Positions 735-56,335 of a DNA stretch of 64,000 bases are shown here, piece after piece. Position numbers and translations under genes: made by a program. The notes under the pieces are model-generated. The model ran no database searches, was not told the origin of the DNA, and worked only from the letters and a program-made list of their open reading frames with translations. The DNA lies in contig JAFLTY010000003.1 of the NCBI GenBank assembly GCA_022509065.1, positions 1,900 through 65,899 of the forward strand, read 5' to 3'. The DNA is from Muribaculaceae bacterium (GTDB lineage: Bacteria > Bacteroidota > Bacteroidia > Bacteroidales > Muribaculaceae). Numbering within the stretch: the stretch's first letter is position 1; every line of letters begins with the position of its first letter.

Positions 735-2984
735 TTATTTGCGCGTAAGTCGGTTCAATTGCCGGTTGGGTTGCAGGACATTGCCAACTGTTTTTGTCAG
801 CGGCTTTTTCTGATTGAATGACGCTGTTGCCCTTATATCGTTAGCAGAGGCTCCGAACATCAACCGGTAATTGCCGGCTTCGGTTTGCCACTGCGACGAG
901 TCCTCGTTAAACGATGCCAAATCCATGCTGTTAACCACAAATCTGAGTGTCTGGCTCTCACCGGGCTGTAAGGCGGCAGTCTTTGCGAATCCCTTTAATT
1001 CAAAAACCGGTTTCTCCATCTCACCGGCCGGAGCACCCACATACAGCTGCACAACCTCCTTGCCGGGGGCGTTGCCGGTGTTTTTAACATCTATACTGGC
1101 TTCGAAACCATCTCTTGTCGCGCGTACGACAGGTTTGCCATATTCGAATTCGGTATAACTCAGACCATAGCCGAAAGGATAAGACACCGGTTTATCGAAC
1201 GAGGTAAAATATCTGTATCCCACATAAATGTCTTCGTCATGGAGCGTGTAATCGTGATTGCGACGTGCATCGCCAAAGTCGGAGCCGCTTCCAGTGGGGA
1301 AATTGTTGTTTGCCGGGACATCTGAGACAGTCAGAGGGAACGTCATCGACAGTTTTCCGGATGGAAACGCCACGCCTGATATGACATCGGCCACTGCATT
1401 GCCTGCTTCCTGACCAGGTTGCCACGCCAGCAAGATGGCATCGGGGATATGTTTCCACGAAGCTGTTTCCATGACTCCACCGGTATTGAGCACCACTATC
1501 ACTTTCTTGCCAAGAGCGTGGAAGGCCTCCGTCACTCTTTCGAGCAATGCGCGCTCGTCGTTACTTATGTTAAAGTCATTGTCTATATGCCTGTCTGCCC
1601 ATTCGCCGGCCTGGCGACCGAATGTTATGACAGCGACATCATTATCTTCTGCGAGTCGAGCTATATTGCGATCTGAAAGCACTGGTTCGAAGTCAGCCGA
1701 CCATTCGCCGGCTATTTCCTTTGTCTTCTCACGCAAGTTTCTCTGTGCCTCGTAATAGTTTTTCAGTCTACCGTCTACTTGAAATCCGGCGTTAGTCAAC
1801 CCATCACTCAGGTTGACTATATAAGCCTTATTGACATCGCCCGACCCAAGTCCTCCGGCCATAAAATCGTATGATGTTCGGCCAAAAAGGGCTACTTTTC
1901 CAGGATTGACTATGGGTAAAGCGCTGTCGCGGTTTTCAAGAAGCACCATCCCTTCGGGAGCGGCAGAGCGTGTCAACGCCGCATGAGCTTTCAAATCAGG
2001 TTTGTTACTAAAGCTGTATCCCTTATAATGAGGTGTTTTGAGAATCAAATCAAGGACATGACGTACCTGACGATCTACATCTTCCATTGACAACGATCCG
2101 TTCCGGACGCTTTCTATAATATCTGTTTCCTGTTCGGCATATCCTGGCATCAGCAGTGAATTTCCGGCATATACTCTTTCAGCTGACGGTCGTCCGTCTG
2201 TCCAGTCGGTCATTATCAAGCCGTCATATCCCCATTCGTCACGCAATATGTCGGTCAGAAGCTCCCGACTTGACTGAGTCCATGTGCCGTTAAGACGGTT
2301 GTAACTGGACATTATTGTCCAAGGGTTGGATTTCGACAATGCTATCTGGAAAGGTTTGAGGTAAATCTCACGTAAGGCACGCTGGGACACGACCTCATCC
2401 ACTTCAAAGCGGTTGGTTTCCTGCGAGTTGACAGCAAAATGCTTCACGCTTGTTCCAACTCCGTTGGATTGCACGCCGTTGACATAAGCCGCGGCTATAT
2501 TTCCGGCGAGCACCGGATCCTCCGAGAAATATTCGAAATCACGGCCACATAACGGACTGCGATGAATGTTGATTCCTGGCGCAAGTAAGACATCGCATCC
2601 GTATTCGAGCACCTCATTACCAATGGCAGCTCCTATCTCCTCAACCAAATCGGTGTTCCATGTGCAAGCCAACGCTGTCCCTATGGGAAAGCCTGTTGCG
2701 TAATACGTGGCTGTGTCACCGGGACGCGTCGGAGCGATACGCACACCGGCAGGACCGTCGGTCAGCGCCACAGGAGGTAACCCGAACCGTTCGATATCCT
2801 GGATAACACCTGCTGCTCCGGGAACTCCTTTACCATTGTCGTAGCGGCCTACCAACAACCGTGCTTTTTCTTCGAGAGTTAGCTCTTTTATGACTTCATC
2901 AATGTTGTCCGGAGTGAGAAGTGTCTGCTGAGCATTTGTGATTACGGCAATCAAGAGCGTAAAGGTGAATATCGTCTTTTTCAT
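735..2984 (-). CDS. GH3 family beta-glucosidase-like exo-glycosidase (secreted)
   Basis: GH3 motifs are present: LTDGPAGVRI, KHFAVNSQETNR and GLIMTDW (nucleophile Asp context). Signal peptide MKKTIFTFTLLIAVITNA starts at the ATG at 2984. The track start 3014 is a TTG. Confidence 0.85.
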   Translation of the reverse strand: MKKTIFTFTLLIAVITNAQQTLLTPDNIDEVIKELTLEEKARLLVGRYDNGKGVPGAAGVIQDIERFGLPPVALTDGPAGVRIAPTRPGDTATYYATGFPIGTALACTWNTDLVEEIGAAIGNEVLEYGCDVLLAPGINIHRSPLCGRDFEYFSEDPVLAGNIAAAYVNGVQSNGVGTSVKHFAVNSQETNRFEVDEVVSQRALREIYLKPFQIALSKSNPWTIMSSYNRLNGTWTQSSRELLTDILRDEWGYDGLIMTDWTDGRPSAERVYAGNSLLMPGYAEQETDIIESVRNGSLSMEDVDRQVRHVLDLILKTPHYKGYSFSNKPDLKAHAALTRSAAPEGMVLLENRDSALPIVNPGKVALFGRTSYDFMAGGLGSGDVNKAYIVNLSDGLTNAGFQVDGRLKNYYEAQRNLREKTKEIAGEWSADFEPVLSDRNIARLAEDNDVAVITFGRQAGEWADRHIDNDFNISNDERALLERVTEAFHALGKKVIVVLNTGGVMETASWKHIPDAILLAWQPGQEAGNAVADVISGVAFPSGKLSMTFPLTVSDVPANNNFPTGSGSDFGDARRNHDYTLHDEDIYVGYRYFTSFDKPVSYPFGYGLSYTEFEYGKPVVRATRDGFEASIDVKNTGNAPGKEVVQLYVGAPAGEMEKPVFELKGFAKTAALQPGESQTLRFVVNSMDLASFNEDSSQWQTEAGNYRLMFGASANDIRATASFNQKKPLTKTVGNVLQPNRQLNRLTRK

Positions 2985-3010
2985 ATTGTCGTTTTTTATT
3001 ATACTATAAA

Positions 3011-4948
3011 TCAATGATTATCATACACATGGATTCGGTTTATGAAATGCATTGCTGACCCGTCTGTCGAGGTTGTCAAAGCGGCATCCCCTACTCCGCG
3101 CCCGGTTAACGTGTTCGCGGTCGATATTCCTGAGACCTTAATCTCGTTAAGGCTCTGTGCAAAGTTAACAATTTTGCCATTGTTGTCAAGTTTCATCGGA
3201 GAATATATTTCGAGACTTGACTTGAGCATTTCGCCGTCATGATGGGCTCGCATTTCGTCTTCGTTCATACCGGCACGCCACAGTGCTATTTCGGACACGC
3301 AGACACTCGATCCAAAATCTTTACTACCGGCAACAGTGAATCCTCCGTTCAAATTTATGTTTTCGTGAACGTGTGCAACCTCTTTTCCATCAATGTACAA
3401 AGCCGTGTATCCGCGCGCATAATAATGAGATAAGGCTATATCGTGCCAATCGCCGTCGTTCACAGCAGACTCTGATGCAGTTACACTGCCATTTCTTGGC
3501 GAGTTGTATGTAACGGTTCCGTCACCGTTAAGCCAAAGAGAGCCGGTGCCTGTTAGACTACCCGTTTCATGCGCGAAATTAAGCAACCGACAGGCACCCG
3601 TTACCTTAACGCGAAAACACAGTGTGAACGGATGCAAAGTTCCTTCGGGGGTGATTACAAGCGTCATATTTTCTTTAAGCTCGATTTGCTGCGATGTGTC
3701 GCGTCGGGGATGTGACTTTCCTGCGAGTATAGCATCGAAAAGCGAAGGGACGAAAGCACACATAAACTCCTTATGGCCTTGAGTGTTGGGATGGGCGACA
3801 TCAGCAATATAACCCACCGACCATTTACCCGTTCCGTCATCGATAGCGCCGAGGGAATTTATCGAAGGGACATCCCACCCGTGAATAAGAAGGTTCATTT
3901 TTTTCACACAGCCATAGTCCGATTCATTATAGTCACCACGGGTGTAATTGTTTACAACGACAGGTATCTTGCCATCGCTTCGCAGTTTATTTATAAGTGT
4001 CAGCATGTTAGTGACAAACCCGTTAAATATCGCTTCTTGATTCGTACTTTCGTGAATTCCCTCGTTGCCCAATGAAAGTCCTATGATGACATAACGGCCA
4101 AAATCGTTAAGAACGTCCGGATATCTGTCAAGAAGATTAGCAGTGTTGTTGCCGCCAATTGATACACCCGATGTATAGAACCCGTTTGGGCTCTCACCGT
4201 CTGCATACCGAGTCCGCAGCTGTTCGCCCAGCAAATAGGCGTAACCATGCATCAACTCAGCGCCTTGGCCGTTGGCCACCGACGAGCCGAAAACAGAAAT
4301 GCGCTCTTCGTCAACCGGGCTGTCTATCGCATAGGTGTAATCGCTCATATCGAGGGTGATGTCGTAGACTCCCCGGTTTATGCGAATGTTTTCGAGACCT
4401 GAAATTTTATTGTCTGACGTTGCTACCCGGAATGTCCCGGGAATGGGACGAACAGCTTGGTTATCATCATTGTTGAAGACGAAATAAAAATAGCGGTTGA
4501 GATATTCGTCGACAGTCTCACCCGACAAATTGACGCTACCGCGCCAGACCCCTTTCCCGACATAATCAAGGCATGTCTCATCGGGTACCACCGTACCTTT
4601 CAATGAAAGGGAAGATATTGGCTTGATTTGGAGCGAAGAGTCTGAGACATCATAGGTCATTTTCACCACAATGGATGTGTCAACAGTCACAGCTACGCCG
4701 TCAGCCGAGACCTTACCATAATCGTCAATTCCCAACGCCACTGCGTTGCCTCGCGAGTCTGTTCCATTCAACGTAAAAGTACCCGGGGACAGGCTAAGGT
4801 AAGATACATACCGATTGTCCAACTGTCGCATAGGCATCTCGCCTTCTTCAACGGCACTTCCCGAGACAGACAGATGTGAGAATTGCACCCCCATTGCCGA
4901 GAGTGCAATAACCATCGAAAGAACTATTATATAGATACGCTTTATCAT
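3011..4948 (-). CDS. Secreted SGNH/GDSL-fold protein with N-terminal beta-sandwich region and C-terminal LamG/concanavalin-like domain
   Basis: SGNH blocks are FGSSVANGQG (I), GLSLGNEG (III) and DVAHPNTQGH (V). The C-terminus LWLNGDGTVTY...DGDWHDIALSHY...LYIDGKEV is LamG-like. The ATG at 4948 (MIKRIYIIVLSMVIALSA) overlaps the upstream stop as ATGA. Confidence 0.7.
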   Translation of the reverse strand: MIKRIYIIVLSMVIALSAMGVQFSHLSVSGSAVEEGEMPMRQLDNRYVSYLSLSPGTFTLNGTDSRGNAVALGIDDYGKVSADGVAVTVDTSIVVKMTYDVSDSSLQIKPISSLSLKGTVVPDETCLDYVGKGVWRGSVNLSGETVDEYLNRYFYFVFNNDDNQAVRPIPGTFRVATSDNKISGLENIRINRGVYDITLDMSDYTYAIDSPVDEERISVFGSSVANGQGAELMHGYAYLLGEQLRTRYADGESPNGFYTSGVSIGGNNTANLLDRYPDVLNDFGRYVIIGLSLGNEGIHESTNQEAIFNGFVTNMLTLINKLRSDGKIPVVVNNYTRGDYNESDYGCVKKMNLLIHGWDVPSINSLGAIDDGTGKWSVGYIADVAHPNTQGHKEFMCAFVPSLFDAILAGKSHPRRDTSQQIELKENMTLVITPEGTLHPFTLCFRVKVTGACRLLNFAHETGSLTGTGSLWLNGDGTVTYNSPRNGSVTASESAVNDGDWHDIALSHYYARGYTALYIDGKEVAHVHENINLNGGFTVAGSKDFGSSVCVSEIALWRAGMNEDEMRAHHDGEMLKSSLEIYSPMKLDNNGKIVNFAQSLNEIKVSGISTANTLTGRGVGDAALTTSTDGSAMHFINRIHVYDNH

Positions 4949-6075
4949 GTCGAAACAACATTTCGAGTATATGTCGCGCGTCTGCTCAATCCCACCATCC
5001 AATGACAACCCGGTATTAATGCTATAATTTTAGCGGTGAGCCAACAACTCAAAAAAGTACACGCGGCAATGGCGGGGATGGCAACAGCGGTATGAAGCGC
5101 CATGTCATCCTTTAGTACTCCTACCCACAACCCGAGCCAGAATATATGCATCAGGTACATGCCGTAACTGAGGTTGGACAACTCGGTTACCAATCGCGGC
5201 GCGGTAGTTTTTTGTATGCAAGTGAAAAGGAGGAACGCTCCGGCAGTCAGTAGGAGACAGTTTATGGTGCAAAAAGACCACCCTATCTCGAGTACGGGGG
5301 TAACGTGCAAGACTCCGGGAACGGCTTGCACGTAGAATGACAATATTGTCCAAACCGCTCCGGCTACAAACAGCGACAGGCCGACAGTCATGCGCTTTTT
5401 GACGCTCCAGTCAAGATGCTTGCGGATATAATGAGCAAGAACCAGATAGCCCAGATAGCCCGAGAAGTACCACAACGCATGGAATTCGTTCCAAAAACAT
5501 TGACCCCATATCTCATCAAAAAATCGGTTTAGATACGGCATACATGTGGACACTGCAAAAAGCATGATGAAAAAACGCTCCTCGCGTGCCGATGCCTTGG
5601 CTAACCACGGCGAGATAACCGGGATGAAAAGGTACAGACTAATCAACGGATACATGAACCACAGATGCCCCGCCAACGTTGGGAAATTGAGCGGCAAACG
5701 CGACAAATCGGTCAGCGAATCTTCTAACTCTATTTGTCCCCACAGCTGAGGCACCGTTGAATAGAGTATCATAAAAAATATAAATGCAGGAAGGATACGC
5801 GCCGCGCGGCGTCGATAAAACATCGATGCCGTCTGTCCCTCGCGGAGGGGCACAAGCAGGAAGGCAGACACTATCATGAAGAGAGGAACAGACATTCGTG
5901 AAATCCCGTCATACACCGACACCCAAAGGCGGTCGGTTTCATTGGCCAGGAAAGACTGCGGTCCCGCCATATCCGTAGCACCGGGCGCACCGTAGAAATT
6001 TTCGCTGGCATGAACGAGCATGACAAGGAAACAGGCGACTATGCGAACATAATCGAGAAAAACTACTCTCTTCAT
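4945..6075 (-). CDS. Acyltransferase-3 (AT3/OafA-type) integral membrane protein
   Basis: The N-terminus MKRVVFLDYVRIVACFLVMLVHA is typical of acyltransferase family 3. About 10 hydrophobic helices run along the 376 aa. Confidence 0.8.
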   Translation of the reverse strand: MKRVVFLDYVRIVACFLVMLVHASENFYGAPGATDMAGPQSFLANETDRLWVSVYDGISRMSVPLFMIVSAFLLVPLREGQTASMFYRRRAARILPAFIFFMILYSTVPQLWGQIELEDSLTDLSRLPLNFPTLAGHLWFMYPLISLYLFIPVISPWLAKASAREERFFIMLFAVSTCMPYLNRFFDEIWGQCFWNEFHALWYFSGYLGYLVLAHYIRKHLDWSVKKRMTVGLSLFVAGAVWTILSFYVQAVPGVLHVTPVLEIGWSFCTINCLLLTAGAFLLFTCIQKTTAPRLVTELSNLSYGMYLMHIFWLGLWVGVLKDDMALHTAVAIPAIAACTFLSCWLTAKIIALIPGCHWMVGLSRRATYTRNVVST

Positions 6076-6094: not shown

Positions 6095-7231
6095 TTATTC
6101 GGCTACCGAAAACTTATAAGTGCAGTTGCTCGTATAGGTTTCACCTGGTCGTACAATCACCGACGGCCATTGTGACTTGTTGGGGCTATCGGGAAAATGC
6201 TGGCTCTCCATACAGATGGCCGCGCGTTTGGGATAGGCGATGCCCTTTTTACCGGTTACCGTTCCGTCAAGGAAGTTGCCGACGTAGAACTGAATTCCGG
6301 GTTCGGTTGTATAAACATCCATCTTAATACCGGTCGAGGGGTCAATTATATAAGCGGCGGGAGCGTTGACATCACGGTTGGAATTAAGCACCATGTTATG
6401 ATCATATCCCATGCCGTTGGCGAGTTGCTCATCGTCGGCATTGATATCCTGACCAACCGGTTTTGCCACTGTGAAGTCAAACGGGGTGCCTACTACCGAG
6501 AGTATCTCGCCCGTTGTCATGAAAGTGGAATCGATGGGAGTGAAGCCCTCGGCATCAAACCAAACAATTTCGTCAAGAATGTCATGCGAGGGGTCGCCAC
6601 TCAGGTTGAAATACGAATGGTTGGTGAGGTTGAGAATGGTAGTCGAGTCTGTTGTAGCCTTATAGGCTATGTCAAGGGCATTGTCATGCGTTAGGGTGTA
6701 CACCACTTCGACATTAACGTTGCCCGGGAAACCGGCCTCACCGTCGGGCGACATCAAAGCCAGGCTTAATGTCGAGTCAGTGACATTGGTCACATCCCAC
6801 ACCGAATGATGAAAACCTTTCGGTCCACCGTGGAGACAATGTCCGTAGTTGTTTTGTGGAAGCTGATATTCACGGCCACAAATCGAGAAATGTCCTTGAT
6901 TGATTCGGTTGCCGTAACGACCTATGAGCGCACCGAAGTTACCGTCCACGTTTATATAGTCAGCTATCGAGTCATGTCCCAAAACAACGTCGACAAACTC
7001 GCCGTTCTTATCGGGAACCATCAGCGATACAACGCGTCCGCCATAATTGGTGATACACGCTTCCAAACCGTTTGCGTTGGTAAGCGTATACAAGCCGACA
7101 TTCTTGCCGTCGACTTCAGCGACAAAATCTTCGGGATTAAGACCGGACTTTGTCAACGTCGTGGTTTCTTCATGGTTGGCACACGAGGCCATCATCAATG
7201 CTGCAGCAGCAATAAAAAAGCAATTCTTCAT
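6095..7231 (-). CDS. Aldose 1-epimerase (mutarotase) with lipoprotein signal peptide
   Basis: Mutarotase blocks are present: GALIGRYGNRI, LHGGPKGFHHSVW, TNHSYFNL. The ATG at 7231 gives MKNCFFIAAAALMMASC (lipobox). The longer track ORF adds an unlikely 29-aa extension. Confidence 0.85.
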   Translation of the reverse strand: MKNCFFIAAAALMMASCANHEETTTLTKSGLNPEDFVAEVDGKNVGLYTLTNANGLEACITNYGGRVVSLMVPDKNGEFVDVVLGHDSIADYINVDGNFGALIGRYGNRINQGHFSICGREYQLPQNNYGHCLHGGPKGFHHSVWDVTNVTDSTLSLALMSPDGEAGFPGNVNVEVVYTLTHDNALDIAYKATTDSTTILNLTNHSYFNLSGDPSHDILDEIVWFDAEGFTPIDSTFMTTGEILSVVGTPFDFTVAKPVGQDINADDEQLANGMGYDHNMVLNSNRDVNAPAAYIIDPSTGIKMDVYTTEPGIQFYVGNFLDGTVTGKKGIAYPKRAAICMESQHFPDSPNKSQWPSVIVRPGETYTSNCTYKFSVAE

Positions 7232-7307
7232 TTTTATTAAGATAATTGGATTGGTTTTATGTCGTGTTTGTATAATTAAGTTTTTACACCGGGGTCGATC
7301 CGGGTTA

Positions 7308-9350: not shown

Positions 9351-9952
9351 TTCTTAATAATACGGGTGACATATACCTTGTTATCGACTCCGGTAAGGGT
9401 GATGATATAAGTACCCGGAGCGAGTTGAGATAAATCGGCCGATACAAAGGCCTCTCCCCCATTATCGACAAGGGCGCATAGTGTGCCCGACGTTGAAATG
9501 GCTGTCAATTGTACAGCCGGTGTCGCGCTAAACTCAACATGACCTGTAGTGGGATTTGGTGATACATAAAATTGAGCGAAACGCGGGTCAGAAACTCCGG
9601 CGGTAGTTACATCAAAAGTCACTGTCTGCATGCAGTCGCAAGTGTCCGATATGTCGAGGTGATACTTACCCTCATCATAAACGGTAATCGTTTCGGTTTC
9701 TCCTAATGTGCGACCCGTGTCATCATACCAGCGGTAGGTATATTCTCCGCTGCCTCCCTTGACTACAAGGTTGGCGCCAAGGAGCAATTGTCCGCCTTCA
9801 GCGGGAAGTGCTGTGTTAATCTGGTCGGTAAAAATCTCAAAAAGCGGATTTTGATTAATCCGCATCTCGACGACTGACTGCGCCGAGACTTTTGCGCATG
9901 CCATCACAGAAAGGAGAACAAGTGCAAAAGTGAAGTTTTTTTTCATAAACAT
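9347..9952 (-). CDS. Small secreted protein: Ig-like module plus full-length T9SS type-A C-terminal sorting domain
   Basis: Signal peptide MFMKKNFTFALVLLSVMACAKVSA. The GGSGEYTYRW motif is SprB/PKD-like. The C-terminus FYVSPNPTTGHVEF...LAPGTYIITL...VYVTRIIKK matches the Por-secretion tail pattern. Confidence 0.6.
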   Translation of the reverse strand: MFMKKNFTFALVLLSVMACAKVSAQSVVEMRINQNPLFEIFTDQINTALPAEGGQLLLGANLVVKGGSGEYTYRWYDDTGRTLGETETITVYDEGKYHLDISDTCDCMQTVTFDVTTAGVSDPRFAQFYVSPNPTTGHVEFSATPAVQLTAISTSGTLCALVDNGGEAFVSADLSQLAPGTYIITLTGVDNKVYVTRIIKK

Positions 9953-15034: not shown

Positions 15035-15047
15035 GAGTCAGACAGGA

Positions 15048-49175: not shown

Positions 49176-50117
49176 ATGCTGAAACGCCTCTTTCTCGTCA
49201 TCTTCATATTATTCCTTTCGTCATTTAGCAGCTGGTCTGTCGAGAAGCCCGCGATATTCAATGTGGCCACATACAATCTTCGACAACTCAATGCTGACGA
49301 CGACTCCCACGGTGACGGGTGGTCGAACCGGTGCCCGGTAATAGCAAAGATCATACAGTTCTATGATTTCGATATTTTTGGCACTCAGGAGGGGTTCAAG
49401 TCTCAGTTGGAAAATCTTAAAGACAGTCTTCCATTTTATGACTATATCGGAGTGGGTAGAGAAGACGGTAAAGAGCAAGGCGAACACTCGGCAATTTTCT
49501 ATAACACAAAGAAGTTCGAGCTGCTCGATAAAGGCGATTTCTGGTTATCTGAAAATCCAGACCGTCCCGGACTCGGATGGGATGCCGCTTGCACACGCAT
49601 CTGTTCTTGGGGTCATTTTCGTCATAAAGAAACAGGCAAAGAATTTAGATTTTTCAACCTGCATCTCGATCACGTAGGTGTCCGCGCACGTATTGAGAGC
49701 GTATTGCTTGTCCAACAAAAAATAAGAGAGTTCGGAATCGATAAACCGACATTTTTAACAGGCGACTTTAATGTGGACCAACATAACGAAATGTATTCTG
49801 TCCTTACTTCATCCGACTTCCTTGATGATTCATTTCATACAGCCGAACTGGTGTTTGCCTTGAATGGCACTTTCAACGGATGGCAAACCGAAGGCTTCAC
49901 GGACAGTCGAATTGACCATATTTTTGTCACTAAGGACATTGCGGTTGAAAAATACGGAATTTTGACCGACACTTATCGCACCAAACTTCTTGAAAATGAG
50001 ACTTCCGATAGTTCAACAGTGCCCCACGCCGACAAGCCGGATGAAATAAATGTTGTGAAATATAGGGCACGAATGCCTTCGGACCATTTCCCTGTGCTAA
50101 TAAAAGTGGAACTTTAA
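49176..50117 (+). CDS. Endonuclease/exonuclease/phosphatase (EEP) family secreted phosphoesterase
   Basis: FNVATYNLR near the N-terminus, ...FNLHLDH..., and C-terminal PSDHFPV are EEP catalytic blocks. It has a signal peptide and starts 4 nt after the GH36 stop. Confidence 0.8.
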   Translation: MLKRLFLVIFILFLSSFSSWSVEKPAIFNVATYNLRQLNADDDSHGDGWSNRCPVIAKIIQFYDFDIFGTQEGFKSQLENLKDSLPFYDYIGVGREDGKEQGEHSAIFYNTKKFELLDKGDFWLSENPDRPGLGWDAACTRICSWGHFRHKETGKEFRFFNLHLDHVGVRARIESVLLVQQKIREFGIDKPTFLTGDFNVDQHNEMYSVLTSSDFLDDSFHTAELVFALNGTFNGWQTEGFTDSRIDHIFVTKDIAVEKYGILTDTYRTKLLENETSDSSTVPHADKPDEINVVKYRARMPSDHFPVLIKVEL

Positions 50118-51850: not shown

Positions 51851-52990
51851 ATGGAACTTAAAGAAATAATCCGCAAGGAATTTAAACAGCGTTTCGGAGT
51901 AGAAGGCACAGTATATGCATCGGCCGGTCGCATAAATCTAATTGGAGAACATACCGACTACAACGGCGGCTTTGTTTTTCCGGGGGCTATAGACAAGGTC
52001 ATAATGGCAGAACTGCGTGCCAACGGTACCGACAAAGTCAAAATCTTCTCGATTGATATTAACGAGTATGTAGAATTCGGTCTTAACGAAGAAGACGCTC
52101 CCGTTGCTCAATGGGCACGCTACATTTTCGGTGTATGCCGTGAAATAATCAAACGCGGTGGCCGAGTAGAGGGTTTTGATGCCGTCTTTGCAGGTAATGT
52201 TCCTCTGGGCGCCGGTTTGAGTTCTTCGGCTGCCCTCGAGTCATGCTTCGCTTTTGCACTTAATGACATGTTTAACAACGGATCGATTGACAAGTTCGAG
52301 CTGGCTCGTATCGGTCAATCAACCGAACATAATTACTGTGGTGTCAACTGTGGCATTATGGATCAGTTTGCCAGTGTCTTCGGCAAAAAAGATCACCTTA
52401 TGCGTCTTGACTGCAGATCTATGGAATATGAATATTTTCCTTTCCATCCCGAAGGTCACAAGCTCGTTCTGCTTGATTCGGTAGTCAAACACGAACTTGT
52501 GGATTCTCCTTACAACAAACGCCGCGAATCGTGCGAACGCGTAGCCAAACGTCTTGGCATTGAAACATTGCGCGATGCCACACCCGAAATGCTTGAATCA
52601 ATAAAAGATGACATTAGCGAAGAAGACTATCGCCGAGCAAAATTCGTAATTGGCGAAAAAGATCGTGTATTGGCAGTTTGCGATGCATTGGTCAAAGGCG
52701 ACTATGAAACAGTCGGACGGTGCATGTATGAGACACACAACGGCTTGTCGAAAGAGTATGAAGTTAGTTGCGAAGAACTCGACTATCTTAACGATATCGC
52801 CAAGGAATGCGGTGTAACAGGTTCACGAATAATGGGCGGTGGTTTTGGTGGATGCACCATCAACCTGGTAAAAGACGATCTTTACGACACATTTATCGAA
52901 ACAGCAAAAAAACGCTTCAACGAAAAATACGGTCATGAGCCTAAAGTGTACGATGTAATTATTAGCGACGGCGCTCGCCGTGTGGAGTAA
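51851..52990 (+). CDS. galK: Galactokinase
   Basis: GRINLIGEHTDYNGGFVFP (galactokinase signature) and GAGLSSSAALE (GHMP ATP motif). Confidence 0.9.
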   Translation: MELKEIIRKEFKQRFGVEGTVYASAGRINLIGEHTDYNGGFVFPGAIDKVIMAELRANGTDKVKIFSIDINEYVEFGLNEEDAPVAQWARYIFGVCREIIKRGGRVEGFDAVFAGNVPLGAGLSSSAALESCFAFALNDMFNNGSIDKFELARIGQSTEHNYCGVNCGIMDQFASVFGKKDHLMRLDCRSMEYEYFPFHPEGHKLVLLDSVVKHELVDSPYNKRRESCERVAKRLGIETLRDATPEMLESIKDDISEEDYRRAKFVIGEKDRVLAVCDALVKGDYETVGRCMYETHNGLSKEYEVSCEELDYLNDIAKECGVTGSRIMGGGFGGCTINLVKDDLYDTFIETAKKRFNEKYGHEPKVYDVIISDGARRVE

Positions 52991-53001
52991 TAATCTGTGA
53001 T

Positions 53002-54051
53002 ATGATAGCAAAAACAATCCACACCTCGCCTCATGGCGATATCACGCTGTTGAGGCTGACCAACTCTTCAGGAGCTTCTGTCGTTCTCAGCACACTCGGT
53101 GCCGGTATCATAGAAGTCAACGTGCCCGACTCTAACGGGAGAATGGATGACGTAGTTTTGGGCTACGCAAATCCGGCTGATTACATGGCTGACGGACCCT
53201 GCGCGGGGAAATGTCCCGGACGGTATGCGAACCGCATAGCCAAGGGTGTTCTGGAAATTGACGGTAACAAATACTCCTTACCGATAAATAACGGTCCGAA
53301 CCATCTTCATGGTGGCCCGGAAGGTTTTCAAAACCAGATCTGGACCGTGGTTGAAGCCAATGACAACACCGTGGAAATGCAATATGTTTCAGCCGATGGA
53401 GAACAAGGATATCCCGGAACACTAACGGCTACGGCAATCTACACTTGGACCGACCAAAACCAACTAAAGCTCACACTCAAAGCTCAGGTTGAAGGCAAGC
53501 CCACAGTTGTCAATCTTACAAACCATGCTTATTGGAATTTGTCAGGACATGACGCAGGCAACGCGCTCAAACAAACATTACAACTGAACGCCTCCAAATA
53601 TTTGCCCACCGATGATACCCTTATTCCGACGGGTGACTTTGCCGACGTAAAGGATACCCCGATGGATTTCACTTCACCCAAGTCACTGGATACAGACATA
53701 CATGCAGATTTCCCGGCACTTGTTTTTGGCAAAGGGTACGATAACTGTTGGGTAATTGACAACTTCGACAACGGTAAGGAAAAAACAGCAGCCATACTGA
53801 CCGATGACAAATCCGGTCGCGTCCTTACAGTTACCACCGACCAACCCGGGGTGCAGATATATACTGGCAATTGGCTTGCAGGCTCGCCCACAAACAAAGC
53901 CGGACGTCCTTATGCAGACTACGACGGCGTGGCTATAGAGTGTCAGGATTTTCCCGATGCTCCTAATAAGTCTAATTTTCCCGGCACTGTGCTGCGTCCG
54001 GGCGAGGTTTATTGCCGACACATAACATTTACGTTCTCAACAAAAAAATAA
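53002..54051 (+). CDS. galM: Aldose 1-epimerase (cytoplasmic mutarotase)
   Basis: GRYANRI, NHLHGGPEGF and TNHAYWNL blocks. There is no signal peptide. Confidence 0.85.
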   Translation: MIAKTIHTSPHGDITLLRLTNSSGASVVLSTLGAGIIEVNVPDSNGRMDDVVLGYANPADYMADGPCAGKCPGRYANRIAKGVLEIDGNKYSLPINNGPNHLHGGPEGFQNQIWTVVEANDNTVEMQYVSADGEQGYPGTLTATAIYTWTDQNQLKLTLKAQVEGKPTVVNLTNHAYWNLSGHDAGNALKQTLQLNASKYLPTDDTLIPTGDFADVKDTPMDFTSPKSLDTDIHADFPALVFGKGYDNCWVIDNFDNGKEKTAAILTDDKSGRVLTVTTDQPGVQIYTGNWLAGSPTNKAGRPYADYDGVAIECQDFPDAPNKSNFPGTVLRPGEVYCRHITFTFSTKK

Positions 54052-54956
54052 TGAAACCCACACTTTTTATACTCGCGGCAGGCATGGGCAGTCGCTATGG
54101 CGGCTTAAAGCAACTCGACGGTCTGGGTCCCTGTGGCGAAACAATCATGGACTATTCAGTCTACGACGCTATTAAAGCAGGCTTCGGCAAGATAGTATTC
54201 GTCATACGCAAAGACTTCGAAAAAGACTTTCGTGACAAAGTTCTATCGAAATACGAGGGCAAAATCCCGGTGGACATCGTTTTTCAGTCTGTCGATAAAT
54301 TGCCCGACGGCTTTGTTTGCCCACCCGATCGCACAAAGCCATGGGGTCCTGCACACGCAATCCTTATGGCAAAAGACACAATTAAAGAACCATTCGCCGT
54401 TATCAACGCCGATGATTTTTATGGCCGCAACTCTTTCGAAGTAATGGCAGCAGAACTTAACCGACAAAAAGAGGAACCAGGTCAGTACGCTATGGTAGGT
54501 TTTGCTGTTGGTAACACAATGACCGAAAACGGCATAGTGGCTCGTGGTGTCTGCGAACGTAAGGACGGATACCTTACCTCGGTGGTCGAACGCAAGACTA
54601 TAACGTACAACGACAAGGGAGACATTATATTCACCGATAACGAAGGCATTGAACACACACTTGACCCTTCAACCCCGGTTTCAATGAATATGTGGGGATT
54701 TACTCCTGATTACTTCGCCGTGGCTGAAAGAGAATTCACCGACTTCCTCAAACGAGACATAAATACTCCCAAAGCCGAACAAGTCATACCCGATGTCATC
54801 GGGAATTTGATACGTTCAAACGAAGCTAAAGTCAAAGTCCTGGATACTAATTCCCGGTGGTTTGGCGTTACATATGCTGAGGACAGACCAAAAGTCGTAC
54901 AAAAATTCGCCGAACTTCATCAATCCGGCCAATATCCTACCCCACTTTTCCGATAA
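54051..54956 (+). CDS. Sugar-phosphate nucleotidyltransferase-fold protein
   Basis: The ATG at 54051 overlaps the galM TAA by 1 nt. MKPTLFILAAGMGSRYGGLKQL is a G-rich NTP-binding loop of the nucleotidyltransferase fold. ...PWGPAHAIL...VINADDFYG is also present. Confidence 0.65.
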   Translation: MKPTLFILAAGMGSRYGGLKQLDGLGPCGETIMDYSVYDAIKAGFGKIVFVIRKDFEKDFRDKVLSKYEGKIPVDIVFQSVDKLPDGFVCPPDRTKPWGPAHAILMAKDTIKEPFAVINADDFYGRNSFEVMAAELNRQKEEPGQYAMVGFAVGNTMTENGIVARGVCERKDGYLTSVVERKTITYNDKGDIIFTDNEGIEHTLDPSTPVSMNMWGFTPDYFAVAEREFTDFLKRDINTPKAEQVIPDVIGNLIRSNEAKVKVLDTNSRWFGVTYAEDRPKVVQKFAELHQSGQYPTPLFR

Positions 54957-54985
54957 CATAACCAATAAATTAACCATACCAAATC

Positions 54986-56335
54986 ATGACAACTAACAAT
55001 CAAACCAACCAACCACGCGGAAACTATTCACTCCCCATAGTGATTATGTTCGCGTTGTTCTTCATGATTGCTTTCGTTACCGGCTATCAGAACCCTCTTG
55101 GCGAAGTAATCAAAAACATGACAGGCGGTAACGCCATCCTGTCACAGTTAGGAACCTTGGCCAATTTCATAGCCTACGCATGTATGGGATATCCTGCCGG
55201 TATCCTCCTCGAAAAAAGCGGATACCGTGTAACTGCACTTTGGGCAGTGACCGTAGGATTCCTGGGTGTACTCATAACTTACATCTCAGGGTTTATCGGC
55301 ACCAATATCCCCGCTGTGATAGTTTACCTCATTGGCGCTTTTGTTGCCGGCTTTTCAATGTGTATGCTTAACACAGTTGTCAATCCCATGCTTAACTCTC
55401 TGGGAGCTACACAAAAACAAGGCAACCAGCTCGTACAGTTCGGTGGATCGTGCAACTCTCTTGGCGCAACCCTCGCACCGGTCATCGTAGGTGGCCTTAT
55501 CGGCGGACAGGCAAGCTCTATATCGTCGGCTAACCCCGTTTTCTATCTCGCAATGACAATCTTTGCCGTTGCATGGATAGTGCTTTACCTGTCAAAACTC
55601 CCCGAAGCTCCAGACTTGGGTAAGAAAAAAGAAAAAATTAACGCCGGTGGAGCTTTCCGTTTCGCAAACTTCACATTCGGCGTGATTGCCATCTTCTTCT
55701 ACGTAGGTATAGAAGTTGGTATCTCCAACTGGACATTCCAGTATCTTAAAGAAAGTGAAATAGTAGGACTCGCCAATCCCGCCTTTGAAGCAGCTGCCAT
55801 TGCCGGAACCGTTTGCGGTATCTACTGGCTTCTCATGCTCGTAGGTCGCCTTATTGGCGGAGCAATAGGAGGTGCAGTGTCAAGCCGCGTCATGCTTATT
55901 GTGACATCGCTCGTCGCCATTATACTTCTCGTATTGGGCATCTGCACTACCGAGTCTGTAGTACCCTTCATTGGCTTTGACTCCAAGAACATGCTCTTCA
56001 GCGTCGTACAAGTACCGCTTAACTCCATCTTCTTTATAGCGTGCGGACTATGTACATCGGTGATGTGGGGCGCCATATTCAATCTGTCCGTTCAGGGTCT
56101 CGGCAAATATACCGCTGTAGCATCCGGTCTGTTTATGACCATGGTATGCGGAGGTGGCATAATACCCGCTCTCCAGGGCATCATTGCCGACTCTTCAATA
56201 CTCGCCTCATTCTGGCTCCTTGTGGCAGTCACAGTATACCTCCTCATCTACGCGCTTTTCCTGTCAAGACCCTCTAACAAAATGCCGCAGGAAAAAGAAA
56301 TCCTGTACGAAGACGGTCACGAAGTACAAGCTTGA
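54986..56335 (+). CDS. MFS sugar:H+ symporter (FucP/GluP glucose-galactose-fucose permease type)
   Basis: 449 aa with about 12 hydrophobic helices. It has the FucP/GluP-like N-terminus and central loop KLPEAPDLGKKKEK. It lies next to galK and galM. Confidence 0.75.
   Translation: MTTNNQTNQPRGNYSLPIVIMFALFFMIAFVTGYQNPLGEVIKNMTGGNAILSQLGTLANFIAYACMGYPAGILLEKSGYRVTALWAVTVGFLGVLITYISGFIGTNIPAVIVYLIGAFVAGFSMCMLNTVVNPMLNSLGATQKQGNQLVQFGGSCNSLGATLAPVIVGGLIGGQASSISSANPVFYLAMTIFAVAWIVLYLSKLPEAPDLGKKKEKINAGGAFRFANFTFGVIAIFFYVGIEVGISNWTFQYLKESEIVGLANPAFEAAAIAGTVCGIYWLLMLVGRLIGGAIGGAVSSRVMLIVTSLVAIILLVLGICTTESVVPFIGFDSKNMLFSVVQVPLNSIFFIACGLCTSVMWGAIFNLSVQGLGKYTAVASGLFMTMVCGGGIIPALQGIIADSSILASFWLLVAVTVYLLIYALFLSRPSNKMPQEKEILYEDGHEVQA

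What the first reader, a model, noticed from the sequence alone, without database searches (positions are those of the whole stretch)
735..56335. Enzyme set points to a fungal-type, galactosylated and phosphorylated alpha-mannan rather than a plant or host glycan
Seen in sequence: one regulated locus combines the following.
- GH76-like (9996-11561), GH92 (40673-42988) and GH125 (45522-46985).
- GH36 alpha-galactosidase (47018-49171).
- Two GH2 modules, two GH43, GH127/146, GH32, GH3 and a BNR propeller.
- Two SGNH proteins.
- An EEP phosphoesterase, with a GDPD-EEP fusion next door.
- Cytoplasmic galactose entry genes (galK, galM, permease) in the same operon as the glycosidases.
Established knowledge: the GH76, GH92 and GH125 triad is the hallmark of the characterised Bacteroides thetaiotaomicron yeast alpha-mannan PULs. 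Those PULs also use sugar-phosphate-removing enzymes and, for fission-yeast mannan, an alpha-galactosidase. GH43 and GH2 families include beta-D-galactofuranosidases, and alpha-L-Araf and beta-D-Galf are near-isosteric.
Inference: the target could be an alpha-1,6-mannan backbone decorated with galactose (pyranose and/or furanose) and phosphodiester-linked groups, i.e. a fungal galactomannan or phosphomannan. Released galactose would be funnelled directly into metabolism. A Sus-type PUL with this mix, together with T9SS-type cargo, is to my knowledge not a described archetype.
Basis: partly seen in the sequence, partly recalled or inferred. Interest (0 to 1): 0.7.

Follow-up and report, generated by a model that had tools for sequence, protein, structure and literature searches.

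The report
Probable fungal galactofuranomannan utilisation locus
This is a large sugar-harvesting gene cluster of an uncultured gut Bacteroidales bacterium that most likely digests fungal cell-wall alpha-mannan carrying galactofuranose, alpha-galactose, phosphate and ester groups: a new variant of the known yeast-mannan loci, not a new kind of system.

Summary

New evidence supports the interpretation:
- The EEP protein is a close homologue of BT3783, the mannose-6-phosphatase of the B. thetaiotaomicron yeast-mannan PUL (E 1e-109).
- The GH76-like protein keeps the catalytic Asp-Asp motif.
- Both GH2 modules belong to the furanosidase-only GH2 group. The stand-alone GH2 conserves every catalytic and galactofuranose-contacting residue of Streptomyces ORF1110 on a position map; the fused module conserves them on reading its alignment.
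- A related species keeps GH32-galK-galM-NTP transferase-MFS fused to the same glycosidase operon without any alpha-galactosidase. It also ends the SusCD/GH76 operon with a ROK kinase and mannose-6-P isomerase.
- No arabinose catabolic genes occur anywhere.
- GH125, GH92, the phosphatase, GH127, GH43, GH2 and GtaA-like genes co-occur in many Bacteroidales loci.

Weak points:
- The GH32 is a bona fide fructosidase type and is unexplained.
- The GDPD-EEP gene is not linked by strand or synteny.
- The T9SS signal is recognised, below threshold, in only one protein.
- A T9SS-linked mannan PUL is already described in B. salyersiae.

Nothing is experimentally tested. Verdict: new variant of a known kind, moderate interest.

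The parts
1..700 (-). ROK-family sugar kinase (N-terminal 233 aa; the gene runs off the window start). Probable mannose or hexose kinase at the end of the SusCD/GH76 operon.
   Evidence: The open frame on the minus strand is shown. NCBIfam gives ROK_glcA_fam, E 3e-10. The relative locus L088 has ROK plus mannose-6-P isomerase at the same position. The ORF 62-718(+) is its shadow.
735..3014 (-). GH3 exo-glycosidase with an Fn3-like domain and a signal peptide.
   Evidence: Pfam GH3 N, GH3 C and Fn3-like domains. The best NCBIfam matches are exo-alpha-1,6-L-arabinopyranosidase and beta-glucosidase, both far below cut-off. The gene is absent from the relative L088.
3011..5008 (-). SGNH/GDSL esterase (665 aa) with a weak laminin-G-like domain.
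   Evidence: Pfam Lipase_GDSL_2. Conserved in L088.
4945..6075 (-). Acyl_transf_3 integral-membrane acyltransferase; its role in a catabolic locus is unexplained.
   Evidence: Pfam, E 5e-48. Conserved in L088 and, by the tblastn identities, in L061 (75%), L058 (72%) and L023 (65%).
6095..7318 (-). Aldose 1-epimerase with a signal peptide (probable true start at MKNCFF..., about 378 aa); periplasmic mutarotase.
   Evidence: Pfam Aldose_epim. NCBIfam galactose-1-epimerase, 327 bits. 56-58% homologues sit beside GH125 in Bacteroides loci.
7308..9350 (-). Sialidase-fold six-bladed propeller preceded by Ig/FnIII domains (GH93-like); specificity unknown.
   Evidence: Pfam BNR_2. AF2 model with pLDDT 90.5. 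Top Foldseek hits are GH33 sialidases and GH145. JGI names a 60% homologue GH93.
9347..9952 (-). Small secreted protein (201 aa) with a T9SS-type C-terminal domain.
   Evidence: Por_Secre_tail at 23 bits, below the cut-off of 27. Conserved in L088.
9996..11561 (-). Divergent GH76 endo-alpha-1,6-mannanase candidate with a T9SS-like tail.
   Evidence: Pfam GH76 at 70 bits. PDB hits include the Salegentibacter GH76A 6shd (the top hit) and other solved GH76 alpha-1,6-mannanases; the 6shd alignment shows the catalytic DD and GGI.W motifs aligned. The tail is shown.
11744..12814 (-). DUF4973 / BT_3044-like surface glycan-binding lipoprotein.
   Evidence: Pfam. Lipobox and N-terminus are shown.
12857..18176 (-). 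SusD (12857-15034) and SusC (15048-18176) outer-membrane uptake pair.
   Evidence: Pfam SusD_RagB, Plug and CarbopepD_reg_2.
18216..19787 (-). IPT/TIG surface lipoprotein (SGBP-like).
   Evidence: Pfam TIG. The N-terminus reads LSSCKDEE.
19999..21033 (+). GH43 lipoprotein. Its nearest solved relatives are GH43 alpha-L-arabinofuranosidases; I recall these as subfamily GH43_26 exo-alpha-1,5 enzymes.
   Evidence: Pfam GH43. PDB hits 3k1u, 3akf and 5m8b at 108-122 bits. The subfamily label comes from memory and was not tested.
21098..25126 (-). Hybrid two-component system sensor/regulator; the only regulator in the locus.
   Evidence: Pfam Reg_prop, Y_Y_Y, HisKA, HATPase_c, Response_reg and HTH_18. 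It is only 22-29% identical to the HTCS genes of related GH125 loci.
25428..27473 (-). GH127 (beta-L-arabinofuranosidase family; possible alpha-D-Galf analogue activity).
   Evidence: Pfam GH127 catalytic and middle domains. Homologues at 51-79% sit beside GH125 in 9 of 80 loci.
27503..34749 (-). Three paralogous secreted proteins (432, 906 and 939 aa) of an unannotated family. They are built of tandem jelly-roll, CBM-like modules with a short T9SS-like tail. Probable glycan-binding proteins.
   Evidence: 51-54% mutual identity. No Pfam, NCBIfam or PDB sequence hit. Homologues occur only as 'hypothetical' proteins in Bacteroidaceae and Muribaculaceae MAGs, and one (P0019) carries GtaA-family Pfam domains. 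AF2 model with pLDDT 82.6. Foldseek returns only lectin, CBM and GH2_N-type sandwiches.
35053..39567 (+). 1504-aa fusion. The N-terminal half is GtaA-like (DUF4964-DUF5127-six-hairpin), a putative glycosidase of unknown specificity. The C-terminal half is a GH2 group III furanosidase module. A T9SS-like tail follows.
   Evidence: Pfam. The GH2 half matches 9j6n beta-D-galactofuranosidase at E 2e-141 and 7sf2 at E 2e-175. The GtaA half has no PDB hit. The same fusion occurs in L017 (76%), L053 (69%) and L085.
39674..40645 (+). GH43 whose best solved relative is BT_3675, a member of GH43_34. That subfamily holds both Galf-ases and Araf-ases.
   Evidence: Pfam GH43. PDB 3qz4 at 151 bits. The subfamily is taken from bioRxiv 10.1101/2021.10.27.466152.
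40673..42988 (+). GH92 alpha-mannosidase.
   Evidence: Pfam at 564 bits. Orthologues at 72-81% sit next to GH125 and GtaA-like genes in many loci.
42995..43681 (+). SGNH/GDSL esterase (228 aa) with a signal peptide.
   Evidence: Pfam Lipase_GDSL_2 at 99 bits. Found beside GH125 in 7 of 80 loci.
43684..45498 (+). GH2 group III furanosidase; probable exo-beta-D-galactofuranosidase.
   Evidence: Matches 7sf2 at E 3e-268 and 9j6n/9j6m at E 1e-143. K184, Y194, H369, N446, E447, E508, Y529 and E571 equal ORF1110 K212, Y228, H401, N463, E464, E530, Y551 and E594.
45522..46985 (+). GH125 exo-alpha-1,6-mannosidase.
   Evidence: Pfam at 584 bits. Homologues at 66-76% in 80 Bacteroidales loci.
47018..49171 (+). 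GH36 alpha-galactosidase with a signal peptide. It is inserted between GH125 and the phosphatase, which are direct neighbours elsewhere.
   Evidence: Pfam Melibiase at 348 bits, plus GH36N and GH36C. The GH125-EEP adjacency is seen in L013, L015, L020, L023 and L028. GH36 is absent from the relative L086.
49176..50117 (+). EEP-family mannose-6-phosphatase (BT3783 homologue).
   Evidence: Matches 3mpr at E 3e-109 and 4c1r 'mannosyl-6-phosphatase' at E 2e-108, full length. The function of BT3783 is described in PMC4978465.
50151..51794 (+). GH32 beta-fructofuranosidase-type enzyme with a signal peptide; unexplained by the mannan model.
   Evidence: Pfam GH32N at 219 bits. The WLNDPNG, RDP and EC motifs are intact. 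It directly follows GH125 in the relative L086.
51851..56335 (+). Cytoplasmic galactose entry module: galK (51851-52990), galM (53002-54051), sugar-1-P nucleotidyltransferase-like gene (54051-54956) and GluP-type MFS permease (54986-56335).
   Evidence: galK scores 298 bits against the TIGR00131 cut-off of 227. There is no terminator before 56636-56670. The same four genes follow the glycosidase operon in L086.
56908..58398 (-). GDPD-EEP fusion phosphodiesterase with a signal peptide; a neighbour, with no support for membership of the locus.
   Evidence: Pfam GDPD plus Exo_endo_phos. It lies on the opposite strand beyond the operon terminator. No homologue was found in the 80 related loci.

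Best explanation
The window holds one composite polysaccharide utilisation locus of an uncultured gut Bacteroidales bacterium. It most likely targets a fungal-type alpha-mannan or mannoprotein. The proposed substrate has an alpha-1,6-mannan backbone carrying mannose side chains, beta-D-galactofuranose, some alpha-galactopyranose, phosphate and O-acyl groups. In other words, it resembles an Aspergillus or Penicillium galactomannan or phosphogalactomannan.

Proposed mechanism (steps marked 'shown' rest on sequence tests here; the rest are inferred):
1. Secreted or surface proteins bind the polymer. These are the three CBM-like paralogues, the TIG and DUF4973 lipoproteins, and SusD.
2. Exo-furanosidases remove Galf caps and chains. 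These are the two GH2 group III modules (family and active-site residues shown), the GH43_34-like enzyme and the other GH43 (nearest to arabinofuranosidases), and possibly the GH93-like propeller, GH127 and the GtaA-like module.
3. SGNH esterases remove acyl groups and GH36 removes alpha-Gal.
4. The GH76 (catalytic motif shown) cuts the exposed alpha-1,6 backbone, and SusC/D imports the fragments.
5. In the periplasm, GH92 and GH125 release mannose. The BT3783-type phosphatase (close homology shown) removes mannose-6-phosphate.
6. Mannose enters metabolism through the ROK kinase (and PMI, as in the relative).
7. Galactose is imported by the GluP-type MFS permease. GalM, GalK and the nucleotidyltransferase then process it.
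8. One HTCS senses an unknown oligosaccharide and controls the whole set.
For: -
- GH76 retains the DD catalytic dyad against solved alpha-1,6-mannanases.
- The EEP protein matches BT3783/4c1r mannosyl-6-phosphatase at E 1e-109. The role of BT3783 in Bt MAN-PUL2 is documented in PMC4978465.
- Both GH2 modules match the GH2 beta-D-galactofuranosidase ORF1110 at about 480 bits. Every catalytic, Galf O2/O3/O5/O6-binding and Mg residue is conserved (PMC11627007). For the fused module this was read from the alignment rather than mapped by position.
- GH2 group III contains only furanosidases, with six Galf-ases and two Araf-ases characterised (PMC12243196).
- The best solved relative of the second GH43 (39674-40645) is a GH43_34 member, a subfamily with known Galf-ases.
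- Gut Bacteroides are known to use Galf-ases in PULs (PMC10115798).
- A related species keeps two matching units. The first is GtaA-GH2, GH43, GH92, SGNH, GH2, GH125, GH32, galK, galM, NTP, MFS as one same-strand run with no GH36. The second is TIG, SusC, SusD, DUF4973, GH76, tail protein, BNR, galM, AcylT3, SGNH, ROK, PMI. Galactose and mannose catabolism are therefore conserved parts of the two operons.
- No araA/B/D or other pentose genes occur in the window.
- In 80 GH125 loci from other Bacteroidales, the following neighbours recur: GH92 (30), GtaA-like (18), GH2 of this type (11), BT3783-like EEP (10), GH127 (9), SGNH (7) and GH43 (5).
- The B. salyersiae locus GH38-GH2-GH127 | GtaA-GH125-galM is probably the orphan CAZyme cluster reported as induced on yeast mannan.
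Against: - No experimental datum exists for this locus.
- Determinants that separate Galf-ase from Araf-ase within GH2 group III are not established (PMC12243196), so conserved ORF1110 contacts are suggestive only.
- The nearest solved relatives of the first GH43 (19999-21033), GH127 and the GH43_34 member are L-arabinofuranosidases.
- The GH32 has a complete fructosidase active site and is conserved in the operon. No fungal mannan is known to me to contain fructofuranose.
- GH36 plus GH32 also reads as a raffinose module.
- GH38 and GH99, which are used by Bt on yeast mannan, are absent.
- The HTCS and SusC/D are not orthologous to those of related loci (22-37% identity), so the inducing ligand is unknown.
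- In the relative the two modules lie on different contigs, so their joint regulation in this genome is assumed.
- The link between L048 and the published CAZyme cluster is inferred; locus tags were not verified.
Confidence: 0.55

Rival explanations
1. Composite locus without a single substrate. In this reading, a yeast-type alpha-mannan core (SusCD, GH76, GH92, GH125, phosphatase, ROK) has been juxtaposed with unrelated modules for plant glycans. These would be L-arabinofuranoside removal (GH2 group III, two GH43, GH127, GH93-like) and raffinose, sucrose and galactose use (GH36, GH32, galK, galM, MFS).
For: - The nearest solved relatives of the two GH43s are arabinofuranosidases or xylosidases.
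- GH127 is the beta-L-arabinofuranosidase family.
- GH2 group III also holds Araf-ases.
- GH93 is known to me only as an exo-arabinanase family; the JGI label is.
- The GH32 has intact fructosidase motifs, and GH36 plus GH32 is the classic raffinose pair.
- In the relative, the SusCD block and the glycosidase operon lie on separate contigs.
Against: - The furanosidase-type genes are interleaved with GH92 and GH125 inside one same-strand run with short gaps.
- They recur beside GH125, GH92 and the BT3783-like phosphatase in many unrelated Bacteroidales.
- No arabinose or xylose catabolic genes, no GH51 and no endo-arabinanase are present.
- The attached catabolic genes are for galactose and mannose only.
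- The relative keeps galK without any alpha-galactosidase.
- GH36 is inserted between GH125 and the phosphatase, which are adjacent elsewhere.
Confidence: 0.2
2. The target is the cell envelope of Actinobacteria rather than fungi. In this reading, lipomannan or lipoarabinomannan supplies an alpha-1,6-mannan with alpha-1,2 branches. The beta-D-galactofuranan of arabinogalactan supplies the Galf. Esterases and phosphoesterases would remove acyl and phosphodiester substituents.
For: - Gut Bacteroidetes grow on mycobacterial arabinogalactan using PUL-encoded Galf-ases (PMC10115798).
- GH76, GH92 and GH125 match the linkages of lipomannan (own knowledge).
- Galf-ase-type GH2 modules are present.
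- SGNH esterases and the neighbouring GDPD-EEP gene could fit acylated, phosphodiester-anchored glycolipids.
Against: - No GH172, GH183 or GH116 D-arabinan enzymes, and no recognisable GH5_13, are present. GH182 could not be screened for.
- The phosphatase is a close homologue of the yeast-mannan mannose-6-phosphatase, and lipomannan has no Man-6-P to my knowledge.
- GH36 has no substrate in these envelopes.
- The GDPD-EEP gene is not linked to the locus.
Confidence: 0.08
3. An ordinary yeast (Saccharomyces or Candida type) alpha-mannan PUL. In this reading the extra glycosidases have no dedicated decoration to remove. They would be relics or act on co-extracted wall material such as beta-glucan.
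For: - The core set equals that of Bt MAN-PUL1/2.
- The B. salyersiae cluster with GH2, GH127 and a GtaA-like gene appears to be induced on plain S. cerevisiae mannan, which lacks Galf. This is an inference.
Against: - Intact active-site residues in both GH2 modules (for the stand-alone GH2; for the fused module) and strong conservation of the accessory genes across species argue for function.
- A conserved galactose catabolic module has no use on a pure mannan.
Confidence: 0.1

Closest known systems
Bacteroides thetaiotaomicron yeast alpha-mannan PULs MAN-PUL1 and MAN-PUL2 (Cuskin et al. 2015, PMC4978465)
   Same: - Sus-type locus under an HTCS.
- Contains GH76 endo-alpha-1,6-mannanase, GH92, GH125 and an EEP-family mannose-6-phosphatase. 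The window protein matches BT3783 at E 1e-109.
- An alpha-galactosidase is added for galactosylated mannan. This is GH97 BT2620 in Bt and GH36 here.
   Different: - No GH38, GH99, GH97, GH67-like or GT32 genes.
- Adds two GH2 group III furanosidase modules, two GH43, GH127, a GtaA-like module, a GH93-like propeller, GH3, GH32, two SGNH esterases and an acyltransferase.
- Adds three CBM-like secreted paralogues.
- Adds attached galactose and mannose catabolic genes.
Bacteroides salyersiae mannan PUL52 plus orphan CAZyme cluster (Buzun et al., bioRxiv 10.1101/2022.07.15.500217)
   Same: - A mannan locus in which glycosidases (including a GH76) and large non-catalytic binding proteins carry T9SS-type C-termini.
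- GH2 and GH3 are present alongside GH76, GH92 and GH125.
- B. salyersiae also has a GH38-GH2-GH127 | GtaA-GH125-galM cluster, whose members are homologous to window genes.
   Different: - The binding proteins there are Big-2 proteins, not the jelly-roll family found here.
- GH38 and GH97 are present there and absent here.
- No GH36, GH32 or galK module and no GtaA-GH2 fusion are reported there.
- The T9SS signal here is recognised by Pfam in only one protein, below threshold.
Streptomyces sp. JHA19 ORF1110, GH2 beta-D-galactofuranosidase (PDB 9J6M/9J6N; PMC11627007)
   Same: - Both window GH2 modules align over the full catalytic unit (about 480 bits).
- They conserve the acid/base and nucleophile Glu, the NE motif, and K212, Y228, H401, Y551 and E594, which bind Galf O3, O5 and O6. 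They also conserve the Mg site.
   Different: - No CBM42 domain.
- One module is fused behind a GtaA-like domain.
- The closest structure is the uncharacterised B. cellulosilyticus BACCELL_01794 (7sf2).
- Activity is untested, and group III also contains Araf-ases.
Bacteroides D-galactan (Galf) PULs active on mycobacterial arabinogalactan (Al-Jourani et al. 2023, PMC10115798)
   Same: PUL-encoded exo-galactofuranosidases in gut Bacteroidetes, which shows that Galf glycans are a real nutrient for this group.
   Different: - Those loci use GH43_31 and GH182 enzymes and target a pure galactofuranan.
- They have no GH76, GH92 or GH125 mannan core and no phosphatase.
Salegentibacter sp. Hel_I_6 marine alpha-mannan PUL (PMC9213526)
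   Same: Its GH76A (6shd) is the best solved match to the window GH76. It is a GH76, GH92 and GH125 locus attributed to fungal mannan.
   Different: - The match is only 47 bits.
- It is a marine Flavobacteriia locus.
- It has no furanosidase complement or galactose module.

Membership tests
Bacteroidota fungal alpha-mannan PUL (Bt MAN-PUL type) | SusC/SusD pair with a dedicated sensor/regulator | tested here: met
   SusD at 12857-15034, SusC at 15048-18176 and HTCS at 21098-25126.
Bacteroidota fungal alpha-mannan PUL (Bt MAN-PUL type) | GH76 endo-alpha-1,6-mannanase with the catalytic Asp-Asp pair | tested here: met
   Pfam GH76 at 70 bits. The DD and GGI.W motifs align with 6shd, and 4c1s is among the other GH76 hits. 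The protein is divergent and its activity is untested.
Bacteroidota fungal alpha-mannan PUL (Bt MAN-PUL type) | GH92 and GH125 exo-alpha-mannosidases | tested here: met
   GH92 at 564 bits and GH125 at 584 bits.
Bacteroidota fungal alpha-mannan PUL (Bt MAN-PUL type) | BT3783/BT2630-type mannose-6-phosphatase | tested here: met
   Full-length match to 3mpr/4c1r at E 1e-109.
Bacteroidota fungal alpha-mannan PUL (Bt MAN-PUL type) | GH38 broad alpha-mannosidase and/or GH99 endo-alpha-1,2-mannosidase for side-chain removal | tested here: not met
   No GH38 or GH99 domain occurs in any window ORF.
Bacteroidota fungal alpha-mannan PUL (Bt MAN-PUL type) | Induction by, and growth on, alpha-mannan | not testable with these tools
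   The source is an uncultured organism known only from a metagenome contig.
GH2 group III (GH2_18) beta-D-galactofuranosidase | Closest similarity to characterised GH2_18 Galf-ase rather than to GH2 beta-galactosidases or glucuronidases | tested here: met
   9j6n scores 476-483 bits. This compares with 280 bits for the GH2_19 member 7xyr and under 100 bits for glucuronidases and galactosidases.
GH2 group III (GH2_18) beta-D-galactofuranosidase | Catalytic E/E, the NE motif and the Galf O5/O6-binding residues K212, Y228, Y551 and E594 | tested here: met
   All are conserved in 43684-45498. They are also conserved in the fused module, by reading its alignment to 43684-45498.
GH2 group III (GH2_18) beta-D-galactofuranosidase | Hydrolysis of beta-D-Galf and not alpha-L-Araf substrates | not testable with these tools
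   This needs an enzyme assay. Specificity determinants within group III are undefined (PMC12243196).
T9SS cargo (type A C-terminal domain) | C-terminal domain recognised by Por_Secre_tail (PF18962 / TIGR04183) | tested here: inconclusive
   Only the 201-aa protein matches, at 23 bits against a cut-off of 27. The tails of GH76, the GtaA-GH2 fusion and the three paralogues are not recognised, although they share a motif of the type ..Y.L.G....PG.YI..GKK.I.K.
T9SS cargo (type A C-terminal domain) | T9SS machinery genes (SprA, PorU, PorV and others) in the genome | not testable with these tools
   None lie in the window, and the rest of the genome is not available.
Raffinose-family oligosaccharide utilisation module | GH36 alpha-galactosidase and GH32 fructosidase conserved together with sugar uptake | tested here: not met
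   The relative L086 keeps GH32, galK, galM, NTP and MFS but has no GH36. In the window, GH36 and GH32 are separated by the mannose-6-phosphatase.
Plant arabinan / arabinogalactan PUL | Endo-arabinanase or GH51 together with L-arabinose catabolic genes (araA, araB, araD) | tested here: not met
   None is found among the window ORFs. The only catabolic genes are for galactose (galK, galM) and a ROK kinase.

The most novel reading that the evidence does not exclude
The locus could be the first complete Bacteroidota pathway for fungal galactofuranomannan. It may also contain several unassigned activities:
- The GtaA-like module (a family with no assigned substrate), physically fused to a Galf-ase, could be a new glycosidase acting on the linkage next to Galf.
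- The GH93-like propeller could be an exo-galactofuranobiosidase.
- GH127 could be an alpha-D-galactofuranosidase, since alpha-D-Galf is the isostere of beta-L-Araf.
- The conserved GH32 could act on a non-fructan furanoside.
- The three jelly-roll paralogues could be a new family of secreted fungal-glycan adhesins.
Probability: 0.25. Interest if true: 0.72.

Novelty: new variant of a known kind. Interest (0 to 1): 0.5.

Why it matters
- Fungal galactomannan is the diagnostic antigen of Aspergillus and a common wall polymer of moulds in food, feed and the gut. No bacterial PUL for it has been characterised in the literature I could search.
- If the reading is right, the locus and its relatives in Bacteroides and Muribaculaceae would explain how gut bacteria consume mould-type rather than yeast-type mannans.
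- It would supply Galf-specific enzymes useful for diagnostics and glycan analysis.
- It would give a genomic context in which to assign functions to the GtaA-like (DUF4964/5127/4965/1793) family and to an unannotated family of secreted multi-CBM proteins.
- If the reading is wrong, it is one more accessory-rich alpha-mannan PUL.

Tried and rejected
- PDB sequence searches with the 906-aa and 939-aa paralogues and with the GtaA-like half found nothing.
- The Foldseek search of the 939-aa model gave only CBM/jelly-roll matches and no catalytic fold. I therefore dropped the idea that these are new glycosidases.
- Foldseek of the BNR protein gave GH33 sialidases and GH145, not a clean GH93 match, so the family stays open.
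- I tried to learn whether GH182 (BACFIN_04787) equals the GtaA-like family. Neither the paper nor its supplements describe its domains.
- I tried to map the conserved GH76-GtaA-GH92-GH125-GH127 locus of B. thetaiotaomicron (L066) to VPI-5482 locus tags through the literature. This gave no useful hit.
- Sigma-70 promoter scans are uninformative for Bacteroidota.
- I first treated ORF 62-718(+) as a conserved unknown protein. It was rejected as the antisense shadow of a ROK kinase.
- I considered lipoarabinomannan, plant arabinan or AGP, and raffinose as targets. See the rival explanations for why each ranks lower.

Full report
**What is there.** The 64-kb window comes from a 141-kb metagenome contig (ENA ERZ27293326). 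The organism is an unnamed Bacteroidales bacterium. Its GH125 is at most 76% identical to any of the 185,579 GTDB species representatives. The nearest relatives are uncultured Bacteroides, Muribaculaceae and other gut Bacteroidales.

The layout is as follows:
- A minus-strand operon runs: TIG lipoprotein, SusC, SusD, DUF4973 lipoprotein, GH76, a 201-aa tail protein, a BNR propeller, signal-bearing galM, Acyl_transf_3, SGNH, GH3, ROK kinase.
- A lone GH43 sits on the plus strand.
- The HTCS follows.
- A minus-strand group holds GH127 and three paralogous 'hypothetical' proteins.
- A divergent plus-strand operon runs: GtaA-like/GH2 fusion, GH43, GH92, SGNH, GH2, GH125, GH36, EEP, GH32, galK, galM, nucleotidyltransferase, MFS. 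It ends at a strong terminator at 56636-56670.

There is one SusC/D pair and one HTCS, so a single PUL is the economical reading.

**Corrections to the observation.**
- The GDPD-EEP fusion (56908-58398) is real. However, it lies outside the range, on the other strand behind the terminator. It has no counterpart in 80 related loci.
- The left border is not 735. The ORF 62-718(+) is the antisense shadow of a ROK-family kinase that runs off the window.
- The T9SS claim is thin. Pfam sees a sub-threshold Por_Secre_tail only in the 201-aa protein. GH76, the fusion protein and the three paralogues share only a short C-terminal motif.

**Tests of the alpha-mannan core.**
- The GH76-like protein is divergent, scoring 47 bits against the best solved GH76. 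It still aligns its 'DD' catalytic pair and the GGI.W motif with solved alpha-1,6-mannanases.
- GH92 and GH125 are unambiguous.
- The EEP protein is a close, full-length homologue of BT3783 (3mpr/4c1r, 'mannosyl-6-phosphatase', E 1e-109). BT3783 is the enzyme that removes phosphate from mannose in Bt MAN-PUL2 (PMC4978465).
- In a related species from the same study (proteins 71-77% identical), the homologous SusCD/GH76 operon ends in ROK kinase plus mannose-6-phosphate isomerase. That ties the block to mannose catabolism.

**Tests of the galactose and galactofuranose idea.** The two GH2 modules are 47% identical to each other.
- Their best matches are BACCELL_01794 (7sf2) and the Streptomyces GH2 beta-D-galactofuranosidase ORF1110 (9j6m/n, E about 1e-142). 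Glucuronidases and galactosidases score far lower.
- The ORF1110 structure paper lists the catalytic residues and the residues that bind Galf O2, O3, O5 and O6 (PMC11627007).
- A position-by-position map shows all of them, and the Mg ligands, conserved in the stand-alone GH2. Reading its alignment to the fused module shows the same residues conserved there.
- A 2025 subdivision of GH2 places these enzymes in group III. Its only known activities are beta-D-galactofuranosidase (six enzymes) and alpha-L-arabinofuranosidase (two) (PMC12243196).
- The second GH43 (39674-40645) is nearest to BT_3675, a GH43_34 member. That subfamily contains both Galf-ases and Araf-ases.
- The first GH43 (19999-21033) is nearest to GH43 alpha-L-arabinofuranosidases. 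From memory I place these in subfamily GH43_26, exo-alpha-1,5-L-arabinofuranosidases.

Family membership alone cannot separate D-Galf from L-Araf.

The genomic context can. The related species carries the same operon: GtaA-GH2, GH43, GH92, SGNH, GH2, GH125, GH32, galK, galM, nucleotidyltransferase, MFS. It has neither GH36 nor the phosphatase.
- Galactose entry genes are therefore conserved members of the glycosidase operon even where no alpha-galactosidase exists.
- The galactose must then come from the GH2, GH43 or GtaA enzymes.
- No arabinose or xylose catabolic gene is present.
- In the window, GH36 is inserted between GH125 and the phosphatase. These two are direct neighbours in five other loci. 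This favours GH36 belonging to the mannan module.

**Recurrence elsewhere.** I examined 80 GH125-centred loci from other Bacteroidales, each with a 10-kb flank. Homologues of window genes recur beside GH125 as follows:

| Neighbour of GH125 | Loci (of 80) |
|---|---|
| GH92 | 30 |
| GtaA-like | 18 |
| GH2 of this type | 11 |
| BT3783-like EEP | 10 |
| GH127 | 9 |
| galM | 8 |
| SGNH | 7 |
| GH43 | 5 |
| ROK | 4 |
| Acyl_transf_3 | 3 |

- A B. thetaiotaomicron MAG has the order DUF4972, GH76, unknown, GtaA, GH92, GH125, galM, GH92, GH127, galM.
- B. salyersiae has GH38, GH2, GH127 | GtaA, GH125, galM.
- The B. salyersiae cluster is probably the 'orphan CAZyme cluster' with GH38 Bs01537 that was induced on yeast mannan. 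That link is my inference.

The accessory set is thus a recurrent partner of the mannan core and not an accident of this contig.

**The unannotated parts.**
- The three paralogues (432, 906 and 939 aa; 51-54% identical) have no Pfam, NCBIfam or PDB sequence match.
- Their homologues are 'hypothetical' proteins of Bacteroidaceae and Muribaculaceae MAGs, and one (P0019) carries the GtaA-family Pfam domains.
- An AlphaFold model (pLDDT 82.6) shows two N-terminal jelly rolls, a helical linker, further beta-sandwich domains and a short tail.
- Foldseek finds only lectin, CBM and GH2_N-type sandwiches and no catalytic fold.
- I read these proteins as secreted glycan-binding proteins. They would be functionally analogous to the T9SS-dependent mannan-binding proteins Bs04081 and Bs04072.
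- The BNR protein models with high confidence (pLDDT 90.5). It has Ig/FnIII domains followed by a sialidase-fold propeller. JGI labels a 60% homologue GH93.
- The GtaA-like half has no solved relative. A fungal member of this family was labelled by a retaining beta-glucosidase probe and proposed to be a glycosidase (PMC9668830).

**What does not fit.**
- The GH32 carries a signal peptide and intact WLNDPNG, RDP and EC motifs. It is conserved directly after GH125 in the relative. It looks like a true beta-fructofuranosidase, and I know of no fructose in fungal mannans.
- The Acyl_transf_3 membrane protein is conserved inside these catabolic loci and is unexplained.
- GH38 and GH99 are missing.
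- The HTCS and SusC/D are not orthologous to those in related loci.

**Comparison with known systems and novelty.**
- The core is the Bt MAN-PUL design.
- The combination of a mannan PUL with T9SS-type cargo and large binding proteins is already described for B. salyersiae.
- Four literature searches found no characterised Bacteroidota PUL that joins an alpha-mannan core to galactofuranosidases. The library does not cover most subscription journals.
- I rate this a new variant of a known kind. My confidence that the target is a Galf-bearing fungal-type alpha-mannan is about 0.55. Interest is 0.5: plausible, testable and useful for assigning functions to several orphan families, but entirely in silico and built on a familiar architecture.

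Noticed in passing
window 1-718: The listed ORF 62-718(+) with no family match is an antisense shadow. The real gene is a ROK-family kinase on the minus strand that runs off the window start. Its tblastn 'conservation' beside GH125 in L010, L017, L021 and L023 reflects ROK genes there.
   Followed up: yes
window 4945-6075; L088 13203-14333; L061 14925-16010: An Acyl_transf_3 integral-membrane acyltransferase is conserved inside catabolic mannan-type loci of several Bacteroidales (65-75% identity). This is odd for a degradative operon and remains unexplained.
   Followed up: partly
window 50151-51794; L086 10001-11659: A secreted GH32 with complete fructosidase catalytic motifs is a conserved operon member directly after GH125. 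No fructoside is expected in the proposed substrate.
   Followed up: partly
L086 16743-19203: In the related species, the GtaA-GH2...MFS operon is followed by a phage-type integrase and a resolvase. Housekeeping genes (metK) lie on the other side. The glycosidase and galactose module may therefore be mobile.
   Followed up: no
window 27503-34749: Three tandem paralogues belong to an unannotated protein family that is restricted, in the search, to Bacteroidaceae and Muribaculaceae MAGs. More distant members are typically 1100-1250 aa, and one (P0019) carries GtaA-family Pfam domains.
   Followed up: partly
window 54051-54956: A 301-aa nucleotidyltransferase-like gene (weak GalU/GlmU similarity) sits between galM and the permease and is conserved in the relative. 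It might convert Gal-1-P to UDP-Gal in place of GalT.
   Followed up: no
window 59064-61804: Downstream neighbours are a DUF4932 protein, an ECF sigma factor and a 183-aa membrane protein that could be its anti-sigma factor. They are not linked to the locus by any evidence.
   Followed up: no
L066 2964-5150: The B. thetaiotaomicron-type locus has a 728-aa protein with no Pfam match between GH76 and the GtaA-like gene. This is another unannotated member of these mannan-type loci.
   Followed up: no
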